Source of the DNA: Thermoproteota archaeon | Lineage (GTDB): Archaea > Korarchaeota > Korarchaeia > Korarchaeales > Korarchaeaceae | DNA: 44,740 nt | Assembly: GCA_027491735.1 (NCBI GenBank) | Contig: JAOZGP010000035.1 | Location: 1-44,740, forward strand | Reading direction: 5' to 3' | Part shown: positions 1-44,740 of the stretch, piece by piece | Position numbering within the stretch: position 1 is the stretch's first letter | Layout of the letters: every line of letters starts with the position of its first letter | Translations under genes and position numbers: made by a program | Notes under the pieces: generated by a model | Seen by the model: only the letters and a program-made list of their open reading frames with translations | Told to the model about the DNA's origin: nothing | Databases searched by the model: none

Positions 1-74
1 GGCCTCGCCTCGATGTGCTCCAATACCAGCCTCCTCACGACCTCCTTTGGGTCTTCAAGTTCTGAACCTCTCAT
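1..74 (-). CDS. 5' part of a CDS running off the window (MRGSELEDPKEVVRRLVLEHIEAR...), product unknown
   Basis: ATG at 74-72, frame open to the window edge, host-like codon style. Confidence 0.5.
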   Translation of the reverse strand, partial: MRGSELEDPKEVVRRLVLEHIEAR

Positions 75-342
75 GAAGCGGAGATTTCAGCCGGATAAAA
101 AGTAGCTTGTGTGGACGAGTAGTTCCGATAGACCCCTAAAACACTTAGCGGAGAAAACAGTTGGGTTCAGCAATCTCAATAGGTTGTCTAGGTCGCCTCA
201 CTGACTATAATGTAAAGTTGTCTCTGCCAGGTCATCCGATGAGGACTACAAACGTAGTGGATGATCAGAACAAGGACGACCTCTCGTTACTCTTTGACTT
301 AGTTTTCCACATTTGTTTATGACATCACTACGAGATTGGATA

Positions 343-1186: not shown

Positions 1187-2617
1187 TTGGTCAGGAGGGC
1201 TAGAATTCTCTCAGGAGTTGCTGTCGTGGCTGTCATGACGCCACCCTACCCATGCCCACATGGAAGGTGTATATATTGCCCTGGGGGGGATCATGTCCCT
1301 CAAAGTTATGTGGATGAGTCCCCTGCCGTGATCAGGGCAAGAAGAGTCTCTTACGATCCATATCTCCAGGTTAAAGAGAGACTAGAACAGTTCAGGAGGG
1401 CTGGATTCCTCCCTTCCAAGGTGGAGCTCATAGTTATGGGTGGGACCTTCACCTCGATGCCGGAGAGGAAACAGGAGGTGTTCATAACGAGATGTTTTGA
1501 TGCGATGAACTATTTTCCCTCCCCGAGAGGAGTGCCCAGCGAGTCTGTAGAAGAGGCACATGCCAGAAATGAGAGAGCACTGTGCAGGTGTACTGTCCTA
1601 ACGATAGAAACGAGACCCGATTGGGCTATGCCACCTCAAATAGATCTAATGCTGAGATTAGGAGCAACGAGGGTAGAAATAGGTGTTCAATCAATCTACG
1701 AGGACGTCTTGAGGAGAGTTAGGAGAGGTCACGGCATTGACGTTGTCAAGGAATCAACGAGGTTTCTCAGAGATGCTGGATATAAAGTGTGCTACCATCT
1801 GATGCCCGGGCTTCCTGGCAGTGATCTAGACAGGGACATTAAGATGTTCAGGGAGATCTTCTCCAATGAGCACTACAGACCGGATATGCTGAAGATCTAC
1901 CCTACGCTTGTCATAAAGGGAACTGAGCTGTACAAGATGTGGAAGCGCGGTGAGTACAGTCCTCTATCTGAGGAAGAATTCATGGAGCTCCTGGAGGAGG
2001 TCTACAGGGTCCTCCCGAAGTGGGTCAGAGTGCAACATGTTCAGAGGGACATACCTGCCTCCAGAATAGAGGCTGGTCCGAGGAGGAGGAATATAAGACA
2101 GCTTGTCGAGGAGGAATTGATGAGGAAGGGAGTCAGGATAAAGGAGATAAGGTTCAGAGAAGTGGGTAGAGCTCACCGCAGAGGAGCTCCTGTCAGGTTT
2201 GATCAAGTGGAGATCATGGAAGAAAGATTTCCTGCCGGAGAGGGCACAGAAATATTCCTCTCGATGGAAGATAGAGAGGTGGATGTCCTCTTTGGAGTGT
2301 TAAGACTTAGAATACCCTCCAAAAAAGCCCATAGATGGGAGGTTCGCGGTGACACTGCTTTGATAAGAGAGGTTCACATCTACGGACCACAGATACCGGT
2401 TGGCGAGATGCCCACAGACGCCGCTGCCCAGCATAGAGGATTTGGGAGATCGCTCATGAGAAGGGCCGAGGAAATAGCTTTTGAGGAGTACGGGGTCAGG
2501 AGGATCCTCGTGATCTCCGGCGTCGGTGCTAGAGAGTACTTCAGGAGGCTCGGATACAGAAGAATGAGTGGCTCATTCTACATGTACAAGGACAGAGATG
2601 GGGCCGCCGGGATTTGA
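1187..2617 (+). CDS. elp3: tRNA uridine(34) acetyltransferase Elp3 (radical SAM + GNAT)
   Basis: SGVAVVAVM, CPHGRCIYCPGG, IETRPD, KIYPTLV, REVHIYG, QHRGFG, ISGVGAREY. Confidence 0.95.
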   Translation: MVRRARILSGVAVVAVMTPPYPCPHGRCIYCPGGDHVPQSYVDESPAVIRARRVSYDPYLQVKERLEQFRRAGFLPSKVELIVMGGTFTSMPERKQEVFITRCFDAMNYFPSPRGVPSESVEEAHARNERALCRCTVLTIETRPDWAMPPQIDLMLRLGATRVEIGVQSIYEDVLRRVRRGHGIDVVKESTRFLRDAGYKVCYHLMPGLPGSDLDRDIKMFREIFSNEHYRPDMLKIYPTLVIKGTELYKMWKRGEYSPLSEEEFMELLEEVYRVLPKWVRVQHVQRDIPASRIEAGPRRRNIRQLVEEELMRKGVRIKEIRFREVGRAHRRGAPVRFDQVEIMEERFPAGEGTEIFLSMEDREVDVLFGVLRLRIPSKKAHRWEVRGDTALIREVHIYGPQIPVGEMPTDAAAQHRGFGRSLMRRAEEIAFEEYGVRRILVISGVGAREYFRRLGYRRMSGSFYMYKDRDGAAGI

Positions 2618-13675: not shown

Positions 13676-16516
13676 ATGGATCCCCTGAAGACCATTTGTG
13701 AGCCTCTCAGGAGAGGTATAGAGAGAAAAAAGTTTACACTAACCGAAGTTCAGAGAAAAGCCCTGCTGGAGATACCAGCTCGAAGAAGAGTGATCCTAAT
13801 ATCGCCAACTGGAACCGGAAAGACCGAAGCAGCTCTTTGGCCGGTCATTACTGAGATCTATAGAAAGAGGGGGAAGCCCATCTCTATAGTTTACGTGACT
13901 CCCTTGAGGGCCCTCAACAGGGACCTGGAGCAGAGAATAAGGTTTTGGTGTGATCTGGTTGGTCTCAGGGTGGATGTCAGACATGGAGATACGAGCCCCT
14001 ATAGAAGAAGATCCCAGGCTTTGTCTCCTCCAGATGTCCTGATAACCACACCAGAGACTCTTCAAGTTCTACTGATAGGAAAGAGACTTAGAGAGGGAAT
14101 AAAGAATGTGAAGTGGATCATAGTGGATGAGGTGCACGAGCTCGTCGATGACAAGAGAGGAGTACAGCTCTCAGTTACTTTGCGCAGACTGATGGACCTC
14201 TTGCATGAAGATCCAGGAATAATTCTGCTGTCTGCTACAGTACCCAATCCAGAGCTTGTTAGAAAGTTTTTTCTCGGTAATTCAGGACATGTAGTCATCT
14301 CTAATCCTGAAAGAGAGGTTATCCTTTCTGTTGAGTATCCAAAGCCCGGTAAAGAAGGAAAGAGTAGGCTCGGTGTAGATGAGGGCCTATCGGCCAGGAT
14401 CCACAGGATCATCGAGTTGATAAGGTCCAGCAGAGCCTGCTTGATATTTACGAACACTAGATCTACCGCTGAGGCCTTGGCTAACAAGTTGAACCATATT
14501 TTGGCGAGGGATCACATGAAGATCAGCGTTCATCACAGCTCTTTGTCGAGGGAATCGAGAGAAGAGACGGAGAGAATGTTTAGGAGGGATGAATTGGATG
14601 CTGTTGTGGCAACCAGCTCGCTCGAGCTCGGGATAGATATAGGGTCCGTTGACCTTGTTGTTCAGTACATGTCCCCACGTCAAGCGATAAGAATTTTACA
14701 GAGAGTAGGTAGAGCGAGTCATCGGCCTGGAGAGCCCGCTAGAGGAGTGATTATAGCGGACGGCTTCGACGACTTTCTTGAATCGCTTGTGTTGGCAAGA
14801 AGAGCTTGTGAAAAAAACCTGGAACCCATCAGGTTCTTTCGAAGACCCCTGGATGTTCTATCTCACCAGTTGGTGGGAGAGACGATAATGAGAAGAAAGG
14901 TTTCTCTGATGGATTTTTTCATTAAAATAACGGAGCTCTGGCCATATGAAGAGATATCCATCGAGGATCTCAGGGAGGTGGCGCGCTTCCTCAGCTCAAT
15001 GAGACCAAGACTCTTGTGGTACAACGAGGAGAGGGATGAGGTGTTTTTGGGAGATATGCAGCGAGTCATGGAGTACTACTTCGGTAATCTCTCAACGATA
15101 CCCGACGTGAAGACCATACCAGTCTATGATGAATCCTCTGGTTTCTTTGTGGGCTCATTAGATGAGAATTTCGTGGCTGAATACATCAAGCCCGGAATCA
15201 AGTTCGTCTTCAGGGGATCTATATGGAGAGTAAAGGAGGTTGGAGGAGGAAAGGTTCTGGTCACTCCAGACTCAGATCTGACAGGAGCCATACCTAGTTG
15301 GGCTGGTGAGGAGATACCGGTCGATAGAGAAACCGCTGAAGTCGTTGGAAAGATAAAATTCATGGTTTATGAGATGATCTCGGAGGGAGTTCCTGAGGAA
15401 GAGATTGTGAGTAATCTGACGAGAATTTTCCCTTTTACGGAGAAGGATTGTCTAATTGAGGGGATTAAACCCCTCCTGGAGCACATCAAAAGAGGTTTTC
15501 CTGTACCCAGCGATCGAAGCTTAGTGTTAGAGAGTGTAGGGGATGTGACTGTGATACATTCACATCTGGGAACCTTGATCAATAGAGCTCTGGCCAGGAC
15601 CGTGGCATACATGGTGCTGAAGAACCTCAGGATCCCTGTAAGGGTGTATGCAGATCCCTACCATATCTTCATCATTGGAATTAGTGGCGAGGCTGTAGCC
15701 TCGTTCCTGAAGAACGCTCTTTTAAGAGAGGTGGATGAGAGAGAAGTCGCAAGATCTACCGGGTTTTATGCTATAAGGCTCGTCCAGGTAGCCAGGAGAT
15801 TTGGTGCTATAAGAAGGGACGCTGACATAACAAGAGTGGGGCTAAAAAGACTTATAGAGGCGTATAGAGGAACGATCATCGATAAAGAAGCTCTAAATGA
15901 GGTATTTACGTTAGATCTCGATTTTGATGGTTTGGAGAAGGTCAGGAAAGCCTACAAAGGAGGTCAGCTCGGGATAATAGTCAGTCCTTTCGAACAGTTT
16001 TCACCCCTAGCCCTGGAGGGGTTGATCAGATCGCCCTATCTGTTGGAGATAGCTCCTCCAGATGAGCTGATGAAGAGGCTTCTCGACATGTTCAAAAGAA
16101 GGCTCTTGAGAACTCAGATCTTTGTTGTCTGTTCTAACTGCTGGCAGTGGGGCTCGTGGATCTCGATCTCTGCGTTGACTGAGATTGATACCCTGAAGTG
16201 CCCTGTTTGTGGTGATAGAAGGCTAGCTGGATTTCATGGAAGGCCCGCTGGAGAAGCGATGAACTCTGTAGAGCTTTCTAGAAGGAAGGGACGGCCTTCT
16301 GTGAAAAACGCTAAGCTAGCTAACGTTGCGTATGAACTGGGGCTTCTCACACAGAGATATGGTAATCTGGCCTTGGTCTGTGCGGGAGCGAGGGCCTTGG
16401 ACTTGGAGAGATTGAGAGAGATTCTTGAGAGACATAAGAAGCTCAGCGATTCTCTTCTGTTGGATCTAGCTAAGATGGAAAGCGATTGCATTAACTTAAG
16501 AACGAAAGCTCTTTGA
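13676..16516 (+). CDS. lhr: Lhr-family SF2 helicase with C-terminal Cys4 motif
   Basis: SPTGTGKT, PLRALN, DEVH, SAT, LELGIDIG, QRVGRASH, IPSWAGE, CSNC..CPVC. Confidence 0.9.
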   Translation: MDPLKTICEPLRRGIERKKFTLTEVQRKALLEIPARRRVILISPTGTGKTEAALWPVITEIYRKRGKPISIVYVTPLRALNRDLEQRIRFWCDLVGLRVDVRHGDTSPYRRRSQALSPPDVLITTPETLQVLLIGKRLREGIKNVKWIIVDEVHELVDDKRGVQLSVTLRRLMDLLHEDPGIILLSATVPNPELVRKFFLGNSGHVVISNPEREVILSVEYPKPGKEGKSRLGVDEGLSARIHRIIELIRSSRACLIFTNTRSTAEALANKLNHILARDHMKISVHHSSLSRESREETERMFRRDELDAVVATSSLELGIDIGSVDLVVQYMSPRQAIRILQRVGRASHRPGEPARGVIIADGFDDFLESLVLARRACEKNLEPIRFFRRPLDVLSHQLVGETIMRRKVSLMDFFIKITELWPYEEISIEDLREVARFLSSMRPRLLWYNEERDEVFLGDMQRVMEYYFGNLSTIPDVKTIPVYDESSGFFVGSLDENFVAEYIKPGIKFVFRGSIWRVKEVGGGKVLVTPDSDLTGAIPSWAGEEIPVDRETAEVVGKIKFMVYEMISEGVPEEEIVSNLTRIFPFTEKDCLIEGIKPLLEHIKRGFPVPSDRSLVLESVGDVTVIHSHLGTLINRALARTVAYMVLKNLRIPVRVYADPYHIFIIGISGEAVASFLKNALLREVDEREVARSTGFYAIRLVQVARRFGAIRRDADITRVGLKRLIEAYRGTIIDKEALNEVFTLDLDFDGLEKVRKAYKGGQLGIIVSPFEQFSPLALEGLIRSPYLLEIAPPDELMKRLLDMFKRRLLRTQIFVVCSNCWQWGSWISISALTEIDTLKCPVCGDRRLAGFHGRPAGEAMNSVELSRRKGRPSVKNAKLANVAYELGLLTQRYGNLALVCAGARALDLERLREILERHKKLSDSLLLDLAKMESDCINLRTKAL

Positions 16517-17140
16517 TCATTCGCTAAGCGACACCTTTAGGATCCTTCTAGCAGCTTCCTCCGGATCCTTGGATCGGGTAACCGCTCTTCCAACCATCAC
16601 GAAGTCGAGCTCCCCTATCAGAGAAGGAAGTACATCTTCATTTATTCCACCAGCTGCCCCGAGTTTGAGCTTTGAGGTTTTCACTCCTTCAATGGACTCG
16701 CTTCCAAGAACTCCTTCGTCTATCCCTCGATGAATGCAAACTCTATGGACCCCCTCTTTGTGGGCCTCATCTATTAACCACGGGACGTTCTCGACTCCAA
16801 GTGTATCTAGGAGTATCTCTCCGTTGAAGTCATCTGCGACCTTCAGAGCTTCCCTCCAAGTTGCTCTGGGAGCTGCTCCCATGACGCTGCATATATCCGC
16901 CCCGTTCTCGAATGCCAGGGATGCCTCCAAGGCTCCTGTATCCATAGTCTTCATGTCAGCAAATATTGTCACATTGGGAAAGAGCTCTCTGAAGATTTTC
17001 ACAGTCCTCACACCCTCAGCTTTTATCAGAGGTGTACCTATCTCCAGATGAGAGATACCGGCTCGGATAACGGAATAGGCCACTTTTATTGCCTCGGATA
17101 GGCTTGTGAAGTCTAGAGAGATGAAGACCTCCAAGCTCAT
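16517..17140 (-). CDS. 3-hexulose-6-phosphate synthase-like protein (OMPDC/HUMPS family)
   Basis: EIGTPLIKAEG, ADMKTMDTG, HRGID, AGGI, VGRAVT. Confidence 0.85.
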   Translation of the reverse strand: MSLEVFISLDFTSLSEAIKVAYSVIRAGISHLEIGTPLIKAEGVRTVKIFRELFPNVTIFADMKTMDTGALEASLAFENGADICSVMGAAPRATWREALKVADDFNGEILLDTLGVENVPWLIDEAHKEGVHRVCIHRGIDEGVLGSESIEGVKTSKLKLGAAGGINEDVLPSLIGELDFVMVGRAVTRSKDPEEAARRILKVSLSE

Positions 17141-17416
17141 TTACACCTCGCTCCGCTTTCTCTTAAACCTGAGAAGCTGGACGATGAAGATCAGATAGGG
17201 AATTAATAAGAATATTGACAATGCAGCCAGAATTAGGATCAACTCTAACGGAACTCCTTTGCCGAAGGCAAAAATCAGAGGGCCCACCACAACGACTCCT
17301 CCTCCTGAGATCGTTGATCCTCTTGGTACTCCTCCCATGAGGAGGCTCAAAGCGACCAAGAGAAATCCTGTCACTATCAGGCCAAAGGCAATCGCTGGGA
17401 CAACGTTCCTATTCAA
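17141..17416 (-). CDS. DUF131-like small membrane protein
   Basis: GGGVVVVGPLIFAFG between TM helices. Confidence 0.65.
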   Translation of the reverse strand: MNRNVVPAIAFGLIVTGFLLVALSLLMGGVPRGSTISGGGVVVVGPLIFAFGKGVPLELILILAALSIFLLIPYLIFIVQLLRFKRKRSEV

Positions 17417-17417
17417 C

Positions 17418-17693
17418 TCACCACAACCTCCCGGTGGTGGGTAGAGAGAGGAGGAACCCAAATATCATAAGAGCTATCATCAGAATTATGAGCAAGAGGA
17501 CAAGTCTTCGATCCACGTTTTTTCCTATGAATATAGGGAGGGGCCCTATCATCACTATGCCGGCGGCCTTGGTCTCCTCCTCGTGATTTCTCTGATCGCC
17601 TCCGAAGGAGTCCACGAATGGGTATAAGATCAAGAGCAGTATTCCTGATAGGATCATCAAAAATCCAAGGTATAGAAGCTCGGCACCGGACAC
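17418..17693 (-). CDS. DUF131 family membrane protein
   Basis: AAGIVMIGPLPIFIG between TM helices. Confidence 0.75.
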   Translation of the reverse strand: MSGAELLYLGFLMILSGILLLILYPFVDSFGGDQRNHEEETKAAGIVMIGPLPIFIGKNVDRRLVLLLIILMIALMIFGFLLSLPTTGRLW

Positions 17694-17797
17694 TGCTCCT
17701 CCCCTTTCACGTTAGGATTGATCCCGTGTAAAAGCATTACTGTCCTTCCAGCGAAGAATTAGTGTATTTTTCATAATTTCCCGATGGGAGACGTGAG

Positions 17798-18060
17798 CAG
17801 AAAATCATGATGTTGCATATGTAACATAGGATAGCTTCTGGGACATCAAAACCTTTATAAAGATGAGGGTCGACGGTGGAATGAGCTCCGTTCGGGATAT
17901 GAGGGGGGTAGTGATGAGGGATAAGCTCAAAAGAGCGGAGCTCGGATGGGATAGATGTGAGAAGCTCTGCTCCCCCCGAAGGACTGCTGATGAGTGGAGG
18001 CAGGAAGGTTGTTCGTCATAAATGTCACGAAGGTTACAAATGTAGCGGGTAGCTGGAACG
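17798..18060 (+). mobile_element. Dispersed repeat copy A: TATA-like box plus structured RNA, probably IS200/IS605 (tnpB omegaRNA)-derived
   Basis: Collinear with 44543-44740 (about 60/82 identities in the core by hand) and with 36705-36830 on the minus strand. Confidence 0.65.
17847..17862 (+). promoter_or_regulatory. Putative BRE/TATA (caaaacc-TTTATAAAG)
   Basis: TATA-like box; equivalent ctttatgaag at the same offset in copy B. Confidence 0.55.
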
Positions 18061-18082
18061 TGAGTGCGGAAGGTCGTCTAAA

Positions 18083-18619
18083 ATGGTTGAAAGCGAGGTT
18101 CTATCTGAGATAAGGGAAGATATTGAGAGATCCAGAAGTATCATTGAGGAGGCCAGGAAGAAGGCTGAGGAGATCATTGAGGAGGCCAGGAAGAAGGCTG
18201 AGGTCGAGGCGGATAAGATCATCGGTCGGGCCAGATATGAGATCAGGGCTGCCAGAAATAGAAAGAAGAATGAGATCGTGAACGGGATTTTCCATAACGC
18301 TGAGAAGATATTAGAGCGTTACACCTCAGATGACGAGAGAGCTCTCAGTGAAACGATCAGACTTATCAAAGCCACCTCAAAAGAACTCAGTGGAGAGGAG
18401 ATCAAAGTTAAAATTCCTGTCAGGTTTAAAGACAAGGTTAACGTCCTTAAGAAAGAACTCGGCGTTGAGATTGAGGCGGAGGACACACTGAGGAGCAGGT
18501 GTGGAGGAATCGTGTTAACTAAGGATGAGAGGATATGGATAGAGACCACGATTGAAAGTCGGATGAAGGAGGCCAAGGACAAACTAAGGCTCCAGGTCAT
18601 CAAAATCCTCTCGTCCTGA
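18083..18619 (+). CDS. atpE: A/V-type ATP synthase subunit E
   Basis: 11-residue coiled-coil repeats IIEEARKKAEE; C-terminal GGIVLT..RIWIETTIESR; operon context. Confidence 0.8.
   Translation: MVESEVLSEIREDIERSRSIIEEARKKAEEIIEEARKKAEVEADKIIGRARYEIRAARNRKKNEIVNGIFHNAEKILERYTSDDERALSETIRLIKATSKELSGEEIKVKIPVRFKDKVNVLKKELGVEIEAEDTLRSRCGGIVLTKDERIWIETTIESRMKEAKDKLRLQVIKILSS
18140..18203. repeat. 33-bp tandem duplication in atpE
   Basis: atcattgaggaggccaggaagaaggctgagg twice, period 33. Confidence 0.9.
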
Positions 18620-41336: not shown

Positions 41337-42554
41337 TCAACTTCCTTGAACCACGTCCTTGAGCTCGCGCTCATCAAGTCCAAGCTCCTGAGAGAGTTTT
41401 CTCAAGACGTCAGGGTCTCTCTTTGACAGCACCTTTACCAGAGGAAGTATTTCCCTCCTCACGATAGAGCTCGATATGTGAAGTCTCCTGGCCAGTTTTT
41501 CCGACACTAGCTTTATGGATGCCCTTTCCTCCTTCGTAGCAGCCATCTTCTTTACAATCTCGGGAAAGGCGAACTTCACGAAGTGACTCCTCTCAGCTGC
41601 AGCGCTCTTAGCGGCGCATATCCCCAAGGTGAGAAGTTCCATCGCGTACACCATCAGTTTCCAGTTGCCAGTTCTCACGATTCGAGAGAAGATTATGTCC
41701 GCTGAGGCCACACATTCGTATGCCAGAGAGATCCCCTTGGGCGCCTTGATAGCTATGGGTATGTTCTCCTCAACCCAACGGAGGAACATGGAGGGGTCCA
41801 TGTCTAGGGTGCTTGTCAGGAACCTAGTTCTGGTGCAGTTCCTTCCTGAGAAGATAGATCCGAGTACCCGAAATATGTTTATCTCCTTGTCTCTCAGACC
41901 GAAAGTTCTTCCATAACACTCTGTAAGCTTGAGAGATCCTTGAACGATCGCTTGTAGATCGTTTATAGCCGCTCGGAGATCTCCCTTGGATGTTGAGGCT
42001 ATGGCCTTCAGGACTGACTCCGGGAGGGAGATCCCCTCTTTGTGCAGAATTGTTGATAGGACTCGAATTATGCTCCTCTGATTAAGAGGGGAGAAGTTAA
42101 CCACATCGGAGGCCGCCTTTATTGCGTAGAGGTGCTTCTCATAGGGATCATTGGCTGTCATTATGATGGGAACCCCCTCAGACAACAGTTCCTTGACAAG
42201 TTTCAATATAGTGTAACCCTCCGCTGGCAATGCGTCCACCTCATCTATCAGGATTATTCGGGGAGCGTTGTCCAGTAGAGAAAATGCTCTTCTCCCTCCG
42301 ATCACCTTCTCGAGCTTCTCCCTGTCTCGAAGATCTGCGCAGTTGATCTCCACAAGAGCATATCCCAGGTCGTTCGCTATGGCATACGCTGCGCTTGTCT
42401 TACCAGTACCGGCGGGTCCAACTATGAGAAGGGGCTTTACCTTCTTTCCTTGAGAGAGATCAGACATCCACTTTTTTATCTCTGATATCGCCTTCTCCTG
42501 ACCCACTATCTCATCGAGTTTTTTAGGACGGTACTTCTCAACCCAAAGCATCAT
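41337..42554 (-). CDS. rfcL: Replication factor C large subunit
   Basis: WVEKYRP, GPAGTGKT, IDEVD, MTAND, GDLRAAINDLQ, WVEEN. Confidence 0.93.
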   Translation of the reverse strand: MMLWVEKYRPKKLDEIVGQEKAISEIKKWMSDLSQGKKVKPLLIVGPAGTGKTSAAYAIANDLGYALVEINCADLRDREKLEKVIGGRRAFSLLDNAPRIILIDEVDALPAEGYTILKLVKELLSEGVPIIMTANDPYEKHLYAIKAASDVVNFSPLNQRSIIRVLSTILHKEGISLPESVLKAIASTSKGDLRAAINDLQAIVQGSLKLTECYGRTFGLRDKEINIFRVLGSIFSGRNCTRTRFLTSTLDMDPSMFLRWVEENIPIAIKAPKGISLAYECVASADIIFSRIVRTGNWKLMVYAMELLTLGICAAKSAAAERSHFVKFAFPEIVKKMAATKEERASIKLVSEKLARRLHISSSIVRREILPLVKVLSKRDPDVLRKLSQELGLDERELKDVVQGS

Positions 42555-43510
42555 TCTCGTATCCCTCCTAGGAGCATGAGTCTCGCCAGAAATGCGCTTA
42601 TCTGTATATCCCCGTGTCCTCCCTCAGTGAGTCTGAAATCTATTTCCCCAAGGTAGTGCACAATGTCAGCCTTGAATTTGTCATCTAGATCATCCATCTG
42701 AAGTATCTGCCTATGCATCTGCCTGACTAGATCTTCTGCAGACATTCCGTAATCTACCATTAGCCTTCGAACGGTCTTCCTTGCTTCTAGAAATTCTCCG
42801 GATAGAGCCATCTTTATCACCTCATCGACCTCTTCAGGCGCAGCTATCCCAGCTATCTTGTAGATAACATCTGAAGTTATCTCACGAGACATGGCTGCTG
42901 AAGTCTGAAGCAGATTTATTGCTCTTCGAAGATCTCCCTCAGCTATATACGCTAGAGATTCAAAAGCCTCCTCTCTTATCTTCAAGTCCTCCTTCTCAGC
43001 TATATACTTGATGCGAGATATCAGAGCCTTATCAGGTATCGGATTGAATCTGAACACTGCGCATCTGGACTGTATGGGATCTATTATCTTCGATGAATAG
43101 TTGCAGGCCAGTATGAACCTAGCATTTGAAGAATACATCTCCATGATCCTTCTCAGAGCTTGTTGAGCATCTGAAGTGAGGTTATCCGCCTCATCCAAGT
43201 GTATTATTTTAAATGGAACTTCTCCCAAAGGTTTCGTCTTGGCGAAATCCTTTATTTTGACTCTAATTGTATCTATCCCCCTCTCATCCGACGCGTTGAG
43301 TTCCATGTAGTTGGCTCTGACAAGTTCCTTATCTCTGTAGATCTCGTTGGCCAAGGCCAATGCTGTAGTAGTTTTTCCTGTCCCTGCGGGCCCAGCGAAT
43401 AGGAGATGAGGTATCATCCTTTTTTCAACGAACCCCTTGAGAGCCTCCACTACCTCCGGTTGACCCACTATCTCATCGAGTTTTTTAGGACGGTACTTCT
43501 CAACCCAAAG
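42499..43510. repeat. Perfect 50-bp direct repeat (42499-42548 and 43461-43510)
   Basis: tgacccactatctcatcgagttttttaggacggtacttctcaacccaaag in both rfcL and rfcS. Confidence 0.93.
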
Positions 43511-44542: not shown

Positions 44543-44740
44543 CAGAAGCGCTGATGTTGCGTTCGTGGCGTATGAAGACCTTCGCAATGCCAAGATCTTT
44601 ATGAAGGTGGGCGATTCGATGATGCATGGGCTCCGCTCGGGATGGGCGCGAGAGGAAGGGATAAGCCCGAGAGGGCTGAGCTTCGACAAGATAGATGTAG
44701 GGGGCTCTGTTCCCCAGAAATCCCGTTGATGAGCGGAGAA
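44543..44740 (+). mobile_element. Dispersed repeat copy B, truncated by the window end
   Basis: Collinear with 17798-17999, including tgatgttgc, ctttat.aag, gctccg.tcgggat, agggataagc, gatagatgt, gctctg.tcccc, tgatgag.ggag. Confidence 0.65.

What the first reader, a model, noticed from the sequence alone, without database searches (positions are those of the whole stretch)
17798..18060. Family of promoter-bearing, ORF-less omegaRNA-like cassettes (copy A)
Seen: 17808-17865 aligns without gaps to 44552-44609 (constant offset 26744). 17881-17898 matches 44626-44643 at 16/18, and the core 17917-17999 matches 44657-44738 at about 60/82. The hairpin GCTC-AAAA-GAGC (A) versus GCCC-GAGA-GGGC (B) shows a compensatory pair change. 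The 3' half is collinear with copy C, which retains TnpB-like coding debris. Established: TnpB guide (omega) RNAs overlap the tnpB 3' end and take their guide from flanking DNA, nuclease-dead TnpBs can be RNA-guided regulators, and non-autonomous IS605 derivatives exist. Inference: A and B are TATA + scaffold units without tnpB, either a MITE-like family or dispersed stand-alone guide-RNA genes for a TnpB acting in trans. The match of AGATGTG..GCTCTG.TCCCC..GAA..TGATGA to archaeal tnpB 3' ends is from memory.
Basis: partly seen in the sequence, partly recalled or inferred. Interest (0 to 1): 0.8.

Follow-up and report, generated by a model that had tools for sequence, protein, structure and literature searches.

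The report
Gene-less IS607 remnant carrying guide-RNA scaffold
This is a 262-base, gene-less offshoot of an archaeal jumping gene that kept only its left end and the guide-RNA scaffold at its right end; it is a real and mobile family, but of a kind that is already known in outline.

Summary
Copy A (window 17798-18059) and copy B (44543 to the contig end) are homologous, and about 10 full cassettes plus about 11 solo 3' modules lie in this 1.36-Mb archaeal MAG.

The 3' ~175 nt matches the 3' end of tnpB plus the right end (RE). In other archaea, intact tnpB genes end in this module: 32 of 42 loci, and three ORFs of 351-402 aa in kin genomes. Its three helices covary.

The 5' ~70-85 nt matches the left end (LE) that lies upstream of a serine-recombinase tnpA in full 1.83-1.85-kb elements. 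The cassette is therefore an internal-deletion derivative of an IS607-type IS, not an IS605 one.

A same-genus genome has the empty site: 28 nt instead of 296 nt, junction GAG|GTG, no target duplication. That fits what is published for IS607.

No intact tnpB was found in this genome, which is 88% complete. No guide has a second target. Copy A has a damaged first helix and folds no better than many shuffles.

Best reading: a selfish, ORF-less omegaRNA-bearing element, now an orphan here. It sits between the TATA box and the start of the ATPase operon. Whether it acts as a guide gene in trans is untested.

The parts
17798..18059 (+). Copy A: complete 262-nt ORF-less cassette (LE fused to tnpB-3'/RE module)
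   Evidence: Boundaries come from the empty site in same-genus G001: window 16500-17769 and 18066-18222 align to G001:C26 9863-11136 and 11165-11321. R2 hit at 17788-17905. R1 hit at 17951-18061.
17798..17868 (+). LE-homologous part: CAGAAAAT..., two 9-nt direct repeats ATGTTGCAT/ATGTAACAT, then the TATA-like box
   Evidence: Model R2 positions 5-85 match about 720 nt upstream of tnpB, i.e. upstream of tnpA, in 6 of 42 full-length loci at E 1.5e-8 to 4e-4. Alignment A6.
17854..17861 (+). TATA-like box TTTATAAA, about 25 nt upstream of where the 3' module begins
   Evidence: Read in the sequence. Homologous to TTTTATAAAG just before the tnpA ATG of the parents. Promoter activity is not tested.
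17885..18059 (+). omegaRNA-like module, homologous to the tnpB C-terminal coding region plus RE
   Evidence: nhmmer profile positions 1-167. Collinear with TnpB C-terminal debris and with intact tnpB ends.
17925..17936 (+). Hairpin GCTC-AAAA-GAGC (GCCC-GAGA-GGGC in B)
17959..17977 (+). Helix 1 (family GGGGAG...CUCCCC), damaged in copy A: 2 of 5 pairs
17984..18003 (+). Helix 2: CUGC-UGAUGAGUGGAG-GCAG, whose loop looks like a K-loop (a resemblance recalled, not tested)
   Evidence: 5 of 6 pairs in A. 86% of cells paired across 50 sequences.
18007..18054 (+). Helix 3: 13-bp terminal stem with an A/T-rich loop, followed by GGAAC at the RE end
   Evidence: 12 of 13 pairs in A, of which only 5 are Watson-Crick. 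11 of 13 pairs show changes on both sides across the family.
18060..18079 (+). Flank that would be the 'guide' if the RNA is made; it overlaps the atpH ribosome-binding region (ATG at 18083)
   Evidence: Position only. No second match within 2 mismatches in 18 nt anywhere in the genome.
17765..17779 (+). Native A/T-rich promoter box of the ATPase operon, now about 300 nt from atpH
   Evidence: Aligned with TTTATATTT in G001, which lies about 45 nt upstream of its atpH ATG. Promoter role is inferred.
44543..44740 (+). Copy B, cut by the contig end; its last 127 nt equal C38:1-127 and the module ends at C38:185

Best explanation
Copy A is a 262-nt non-autonomous deletion derivative of an archaeal IS607-type insertion sequence. 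The parent reads GGGG|CAGAAAC-LE-tnpA(serine recombinase)-tnpB-RE-CAGAAC|GG and is about 1.85 kb.

The cassette keeps the first ~70-85 nt, which are the LE with its direct repeats and an A/T-rich box. It also keeps the last ~175 nt, which are the tnpB 3' end plus RE. In full elements that stretch is the structured guide-RNA (omegaRNA) scaffold of this TnpB clade.

The unit moves as a whole, presumably through a TnpA supplied in trans, into GG sites without target duplication. When a matching TnpB is present, its RNA would give TnpB a guide taken from the 3' flank. That would let the cassette be restored after excision, which is a selfish function.

In this genome no intact tnpB was found and copy A is partly decayed. 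Here it is most likely an orphan. It sits between the ATPase operon's TATA box and its predicted start site, and is probably transcribed as a leader.

Shown: homology of both halves, boundaries, mobility and covariation. Inferred: transcription, TnpA mobilisation and guide function.
For: 3' module:
- TnpB C-terminal debris (CPVCG..LKC.NCGFEADRDAVGSWNI.LRGL) runs directly into the module at C28, C31, C35 and C38.
- Intact TnpB ORFs of 361, 351 and 402 aa with PF07282 (E 1e-18 to 1e-23) abut or overlap R1 hits in G038, G015 and G008.
- R1 sits at the tnpB 3' end in 32 of 42 loci found with the G015 TnpB.

Structure:
- 82.0% of 1113 cells pair, against 70.4% in shuffles (0 of 500 reach it) and 33-55% when partners are slid. 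152 cells are changed on both sides, against 61 expected.
- Own-genome copies alone give 77.6% against 69.4%.

5' part:
- R2 hits lie about 720 nt upstream of tnpB, ahead of a 204-aa serine-recombinase ORF, in 6 of 42 loci.
- The LE alignment is nearly identical over the first ~45 nt.
- Parents are 1834-1846 nt and flanked GGGG|...|GG.

Mobility:
- G001 lacks copy A and the C16 copy exactly, at GAG|GTG and GGG|GG, with no duplication.
- At least 3 different 5' flanks (C19, C20, C41) enter one identical repeat at contig ends.
- IS607 is published as inserting at GG with no target duplication, no inverted repeats, and direct repeats at its ends (PMC6188088, passages read).

Orphan state:
- Only C-terminal tnpB fragments were found.
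- In copy A, helix 1 keeps 2 of 5 pairs and helix 3 has 5 Watson-Crick pairs among 12.
- Copy A folds with z = -1.34, and 19 of 200 shuffles fold at least as well.
Against: - The assembly is 87.85% complete and breaks at repeats. A multi-copy tnpB element could be missing, so 'orphan' is not proven.
- The cassettes keep the whole ~175-nt scaffold and still pair at 13-21 of 24 positions, although they are only 51-72% identical to each other. That points to past or present selection on the RNA rather than plain decay.
- In copy A's helix 3, 6 of 7 transitions away from the family consensus keep pairing through G.U (my count). This hints at an RNA-level constraint.
- No autonomous parent with this LE was found in the 60 kin genomes searched: R2 hits only G000, G038 and G039, always as short cassettes.
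- The exact deletion junction was not resolved.
- The covariation counts rest on alignments fitted to the model and on related sequences, so they overstate independence.
Confidence: 0.72

Rival explanations
1. The cassettes are working stand-alone guide-RNA genes in this organism. A TnpB encoded in the unassembled 12% of the genome, or on a plasmid or virus, uses their transcripts in trans. Each cassette supplies its own promoter and a guide from its 3' flank.
For: - The full scaffold is retained, with covariation among own-genome copies.
- A TATA-like box lies about 25 nt upstream of the module start in A, C40a and C27b, and in the G039 cassette.
- G038 holds both an intact tnpB and about 10 cassettes.
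- Meers et al. state that PATEs often encode omegaRNAs that must be acted on in trans (preprint 10.1101/2023.03.14.532601, passage read).
Against: - No intact tnpB in the assembly.
- The TATA-like box is intact in only 4 of 11 aligned cassettes and is lost in the youngest subfamily.
- Helix 1 of copy A is broken.
- None of 23 flanks tested has a second match within 2 mismatches in 18 nt, so the only possible target is the cassette's own empty site.
Confidence: 0.15
2. Copy A has been co-opted as a cis element of the ATPase operon: a leader, or a portable promoter. The A/T-rich stretch in the loop of helix 3, about 20 nt before the RE end, would replace the displaced native TATA box.
For: - The insertion lies between the native A/T-rich box and the predicted start site and is 23 nt from the atpH ATG, so the operon must be transcribed through or from the cassette.
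- The loop carries TTACAAAT in A and TATAAAAG in other copies at a fixed distance from the end.
Against: - The site is empty in the same-genus genome G001, so the element is not conserved at this locus.
- Other copies sit in unrelated contexts.
- No expression data could be obtained.
Confidence: 0.08
3. An unrelated structured archaeal small RNA, for example a box C/D-like or other L7Ae-binding RNA, that only resembles tnpB ends by chance.
For: GAUGA-type motifs are present. There are weak Rfam matches to C/D-box families: sR21 at 15.6 bits and sR32 at 10.4 bits.
Against: - Those scores are far below the gathering cut-offs of 45 and 40 bits, with E about 3.
- The module is collinear with tnpB coding sequence and with the RE in 32 of 42 loci.
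Confidence: 0.02

Closest known systems
IS607-family insertion sequences (serine-recombinase TnpA plus TnpB)
   Same: The ends are homologous to those of full tnpA-tnpB elements. There are no inverted terminal repeats. Insertion is at a GG-containing site without target duplication, as published for IS607 (PMC6188088). Short direct repeats lie at the LE.
   Different: It has no genes at all and is 262 nt rather than about 1.85 kb. Mobilisation by TnpA is not shown.
PATE-like minimal IS200/IS605 elements that carry omegaRNAs (Meers et al. 2023)
   Same: ORF-less and non-autonomous, keeping transposon ends and an omegaRNA that would need TnpB in trans (passages read).
   Different: Those are Y1-transposase (IS605) elements with subterminal palindromes in a bacterium. 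This one derives from a serine-recombinase (IS607-type) parent and is in archaea. Only one weak Y1 match exists in this genome, at 23.8 bits.
TnpB omegaRNA / reRNA
   Same: Overlaps the tnpB 3' end, runs to the RE boundary, is structured with covariation, and the guide would be the adjacent flank.
   Different: Here it is detached from tnpB. No Rfam family matches. RNA existence, processing and TnpB binding are untested.
TldR-type nuclease-dead TnpB regulators (Wiegand et al.)
   Same: The idea of a TnpB-derived guide RNA acting away from a transposon. I saw only the search listing and abstract.
   Different: No TnpB or TldR gene is found here. Guides match only their own flank. The parental TnpBs carry D/E/D-like motifs (GVDVNE, ALENL, ADRD); I recall these motif positions, they come from no call.

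Membership tests
IS607-family non-autonomous derivative | Both ends homologous to the LE and RE of elements that encode a serine-recombinase TnpA | tested here: met
   The R2 (5' part) model hits upstream of tnpA in 6 of 42 loci. The R1 (3' part) model hits at the tnpB end in 32 of 42 loci. L125 carries a 204-aa recombinase ORF and a 402-aa TnpB ORF.
IS607-family non-autonomous derivative | No target-site duplication; insertion at a GG dinucleotide | tested here: met
   Empty sites in G001 read GAG|GTG for copy A and GGG|GG for the C16 copy, with no duplicated bases. 12 of 21 own-genome modules have GG right after the RE (plus my reading). 5 of 5 parents with an RE have GG.
IS607-family non-autonomous derivative | No terminal inverted repeats; short direct repeats at the ends | tested here: met
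   The ends are CAGAAA(A)C... and ...CAGAAC in direct orientation. The LE carries ATGTTGCAT/ATGTAACAT.
IS607-family non-autonomous derivative | Mobilised by TnpA in trans | not testable with these tools
   The genome holds a tnpA pseudogene (C8:10947-10344) and a tnpA-like match at C36:72758-72216. Activity is unknown.
TnpB omegaRNA | Encoded at the tnpB 3' end and extending to the RE boundary | tested here: met
   True for the family in relatives. In copy A tnpB itself is absent.
TnpB omegaRNA | Conserved secondary structure | tested here: met
   Three helices, 24 pairs, 82% of cells paired against 70% in shuffles and 33-55% when slid. Copy A alone keeps 19 of 24 pairs and folds with z = -1.34.
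TnpB omegaRNA | Transcribed, bound and processed by TnpB, and guides cleavage next to a TAM | not testable with these tools
   No sequencing run was listed. No intact tnpB in this genome.
IS200/IS605 PATE | Y1 (HUH) transposase parent with subterminal palindromic ends | tested here: not met
   The parents carry a serine recombinase. PF01797 has one weak match, at 23.8 bits.
TldR-like RNA-guided regulator system | A nuclease-dead TnpB homologue plus guides that match promoters elsewhere | tested here: not met
   No intact TnpB homologue. No second match for any of 23 flanks.
Box C/D sRNA | Reaches an Rfam C/D family threshold | tested here: not met
   Best match is sR21 at 15.6 bits against a cut-off of 45.

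The most novel reading that the evidence does not exclude
The cassettes are a long-lived lineage of 'guide-only' transposons. They arose from one deletion, since all copies in three genomes share the same internal junction region. They then spread and diverged to 51-72% identity while keeping the full omegaRNA fold.

On this reading they exploit IS607 twice: TnpA for movement and TnpB for RNA-guided restoration after excision. They are under selection as RNA genes, with an LE-derived A/T box placed to start transcription at the scaffold's 5' edge. That would make them hyperparasites of an RNA-guided transposon in Korarchaeia-like archaea.
Probability: 0.3. Interest if true: 0.6.

Novelty: new member of a known kind. 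Interest (0 to 1): 0.4.

Why it matters
It gives a clean archaeal example of a gene-less element that keeps a whole TnpB guide-RNA scaffold. Both parent ends are identified and empty sites prove mobility.

It also supplies a covariance model for the omegaRNA of a TnpB clade spread over many archaeal lineages. Record titles include Thermoproteota 'Kor' MAGs, Bathyarchaeia, Baldrarchaeum, Archaeoglobaceae and Undinarchaeota. No Rfam family matches this RNA.

If the cassettes are served by TnpB in trans, they show that guide and nuclease can be separated in nature within IS607 as well as IS605. They would also offer compact natural scaffolds for thermophilic TnpB tools.

For genome annotation, such cassettes break assemblies and can sit inside essential promoters.

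Tried and rejected
- **Rfam.** At gathering thresholds the window gives only four tRNAs. In E-value mode on 17700-18150 there are only sub-threshold C/D-box and lncRNA matches.
- **RNAalifold on a plain MAFFT alignment.** It recovered only the terminal stem. Helices 1 and 2 were set by hand from the sequences, which biases the later counts towards them.
- **First idea for the 5' part: tnpB RuvC-II coding debris.** Copy B reads ...SEDRSADVAFVAYEDL... in frame. I dropped this because the 5' profile does not match tnpB of relatives but does match the LE upstream of tnpA.
- **First idea for the 5' end: an IS605-like hairpin.** It is better read as two direct 9-mers.
- **LE of the G015 element.** It shares a 12-nt identity with copy A, but nhmmer gave no hit. 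The LE of the own-genome IS607 relic on C8 looks different.
- **Empty site for copy B.** Not obtainable: its right flank on C38 is not syntenic in G001.
- **Sequencing runs.** None was listed for window 17600-18400 and no RNA holder was listed.
- **Viral contigs.** An LE consensus pattern gave 0 stretches. An RE pattern gave 30 stretches, none confirmed by R1, so these are chance matches.
- **Literature.** Four searches listed no paper describing an IS607-derived ORF-less omegaRNA cassette in archaea. I read only listings and the passages cited. Supplements were closed and may hold relevant element lists.
- **Not used:** no structure or complex prediction was run, and no protein search on the large shared databases.

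Full report
**1. Observation**

The window is contig C7 of a 1.36-Mb, 41-contig archaeal MAG that is 87.85% complete. Contig ends overlap by exactly 127 nt, and the C7 tail equals the C38 head.

- 17808-17865 vs 44552-44609 gives 36 of 58 identical at constant offset, against a random mean of 14.8.
- 17881-17898 vs 44626-44643 gives 16 of 18.
- 17917-17999 vs 44657-44738 gives 60 matches with one gap.
- The hairpin differs by a compensating pair change.

A and B are two members of a larger family. Iterated nhmmer found 21 hits, and then 32 once the profile included the 3' extension. It runs through a long terminal stem and ends sharply at ...CCAGAAC, after which the copies differ. In copy A that end is at 18059.

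**2. The 3' half**

Pfam's Cas12f1-like TNB model (PF07282) hits several short frames in the genome. Three of them lie directly upstream of family hits: C28:6234-6296, C35:7645-7707 and C38:31019-31120.

Translation shows decayed TnpB C-termini running into the module. An example is ...LKYECGLKADRDVVSSWNIRLRGLKSLKIDVGSSVPP* at C28. Copy B still reads ...GISPRGLSFDKIDVGGSVPQKSR* in the matching frame.

I built covariance model R1 on the last 110 nt: three helices, 24 pairs, structure set by hand.
- In the own genome it finds 25 matches at E<1e-3.
- Among 61 genomes (G000 included) it finds matches in 27.
- In G038, G015 and G008 the match abuts or overlaps an intact ORF of 361, 351 or 402 aa carrying PF07282 at E 1e-18 to 1e-23.
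- Those ORFs lie just downstream of a serine-recombinase gene.
- A scan of one genome per species with the G015 TnpB returned 42 loci from many archaeal lineages. R1 sits at the tnpB 3' end in 32 of them; most of the other 10 are contigs or matches that stop before the tnpB 3' end.

So tnpB genes do end in this motif, and the module is the omegaRNA/RE region of that clade.

**3. Structure**

On the model-fitted alignment of 50 modules:
- 82.0% of 1113 cells form standard pairs, against 70.4% in shuffles (0 of 500 reach it) and 33-55% when partners are slid.
- 152 cells are changed on both sides, against 61 expected.
- 21 of 24 pairs show such changes.

Own-genome copies alone (23 rows) give 77.6% against 69.4%.

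These alignments lean towards the model and the sequences are related, so the figures are supportive rather than proof.

Copy A itself keeps 2 of 5 pairs in helix 1, 5 of 6 in helix 2 and 12 of 13 in helix 3, with only 5 Watson-Crick pairs in helix 3. As a single RNA it folds with z = -1.34. It is a worn copy.

**4. The 5' half**

Model R2 (sequence only, from 11 cassettes) hits only G000, G038 (10 hits) and G039 (1 hit) among the 61 genomes. It hits none of the 35 other same-family genomes. Where both parts of a cassette are found, the 5' hit lies about 100-150 nt upstream of the 3' module. The short cassette is therefore the unit.

In the wider set of tnpB loci, R2 positions 5-85 match in 6 of 42 loci, about 720 nt upstream of tnpB (E 1.5e-8 to 4e-4). 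In L125 that spot is immediately upstream of a 204-aa serine-recombinase ORF, which is followed by a 402-aa TnpB ORF.

The alignment shows GGGG|CAGAAAC(R)TATAATGTTGCATTCGTARCAT shared almost letter for letter between parents and cassettes. Four parents measure 1834-1846 nt from CAGAAAC to CAGAAC and are flanked GGG(G)|...|GG.

The cassette's TTTATAAAG corresponds to TTTTATAAAG just before the tnpA ATG of the parents. The parental box TTTAAATA further upstream is lost in cassettes. The TATA-like box is intact in 4 of 11 aligned cassettes, has one change in 3, and is absent in 4, including the youngest subfamily.

All cassettes share the same internal junction region, which suggests one founding deletion. 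I could not place the junction to the base.

**5. Mobility**

The same-genus genome G001 aligns to window 16500-17769 at 80% and to 18066-18222 at 84%. Only 28 nt lie between these blocks, against 296 nt in the window. The flanks join as GAG|GTG with no duplicated base.

G001 likewise lacks the cassette on C16, at GGG|GG.

Because IS607 excision is scarless, an empty site could mean either gain in G000 or loss in G001. Either way the unit is discrete and mobile.

At least three different 5' flanks (C19, C20, C41) run into one identical repeat at contig ends, so one subfamily is young.

The published properties of IS607 match. They are a GG target, no target duplication, no inverted repeats, and direct repeats at the ends (PMC6188088; abstract and passages).

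**6. State in this genome**

tblastn with three intact TnpBs finds only C-terminal pieces, the longest covering about 165 residues on C18. PF01385 hits once.

One IS607 relic on C8 has a tnpA with stops, the first ~35 codons of tnpB, and then the RE. A second tnpA-like match lies on C36.

The 18 nt after each of 23 RE ends have no second match within 2 mismatches anywhere in the assembly. There are therefore no trans targets other than each copy's own empty site.

**7. Local consequence (inference)**

In G001 an A/T-rich box TTTATATTT lies about 45 nt upstream of the atpH ATG. The insertion point in G000 falls between that box and the predicted start site. Only 23 nt separate the RE from the atpH ATG.

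The ATPase operon must therefore be transcribed through the cassette from the old box (start predicted near 17798), from the cassette's own box, or from the A/T-rich loop near the RE end. No expression data could be obtained.

**8. Comparison and verdict**

The closest known things are IS607-family elements and the ORF-less PATE-like IS605 derivatives. Meers et al. say the latter 'often encode omegaRNAs' that need TnpB in trans (preprint, passages). The present family does the same from a serine-recombinase parent, in archaea.

I found no description of this in four literature searches (listings only, supplements closed).

It is a real, well-defined feature and a new member of a known kind. 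Whether it works as a guide gene remains open. Retention of the full fold across copies that are only 51-72% identical keeps that reading alive.

Noticed in passing
window 1-127 and 44614-44740: Contig ends overlap other contigs by exactly 127 nt: the C7 head equals the C6 head and the C7 tail equals the C38 head. This is an assembly-graph signature. Many breaks fall in this repeat family.
   Followed up: partly
G000 contig C8:10209-10947 (minus strand): An IS607 relic. It has a serine-recombinase tnpA with a frameshift and stops, then the first ~35 codons of tnpB joined directly to the RE terminal stem ...GTTACGGCTAACCAGAAT|GG. This is a second, independent internal deletion.
   Followed up: partly
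window 18033-18046, and the same loop in other copies: The 3' side of the helix-3 loop is A/T-rich: TTACAAAT in A and TATAAAAG in C28, C24 and C17. It ends about 17-21 nt before the RE end, so it could act as an outward-facing archaeal promoter into the flank.
   Followed up: no
window 17989-17999: The helix-2 loop GAUGAG-YGG-AG (AAUGAA..CUGAG in other copies) resembles a K-loop that L7Ae could bind. This is a resemblance recalled from memory, not tested.
   Followed up: no
L125:2432-3640: In one Bathyarchaeia-labelled locus the tnpB frame stays open through the whole RE (402 aa, ending ...AESQNG). In G015 and G038 it stops 38 nt inside the R1 match or just before it.
   Followed up: no
loci L124-L165: TnpBs 73-77% identical to the G015 protein occur in MAGs labelled Thermoproteota, Bathyarchaeia, Baldrarchaeum, Archaeoglobaceae, Undinarchaeota and Asgardarchaeum. 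This points to wide horizontal spread of the IS607-type element.
   Followed up: no
window 18140-18203; G001:C26:11182-12106: atpH carries a perfect 31-nt tandem repeat, starts 33 nt apart (IIEEARKKAEE twice). In G001 the orthologue matches in two pieces about 280 nt apart, with more copies of the repeat between them.
   Followed up: no
window 42499-42548 and 43461-43510: A perfect 50-nt direct repeat 962 nt apart, in the region upstream of rpsB. This may be gene conversion between paralogues.
   Followed up: no
window 1275-1390: A weak R1 match (18.6 bits, E 0.0034) lies inside an ordinary ORF (..CPHGRCIYCPGG..). I judged it a chance match.
   Followed up: yes
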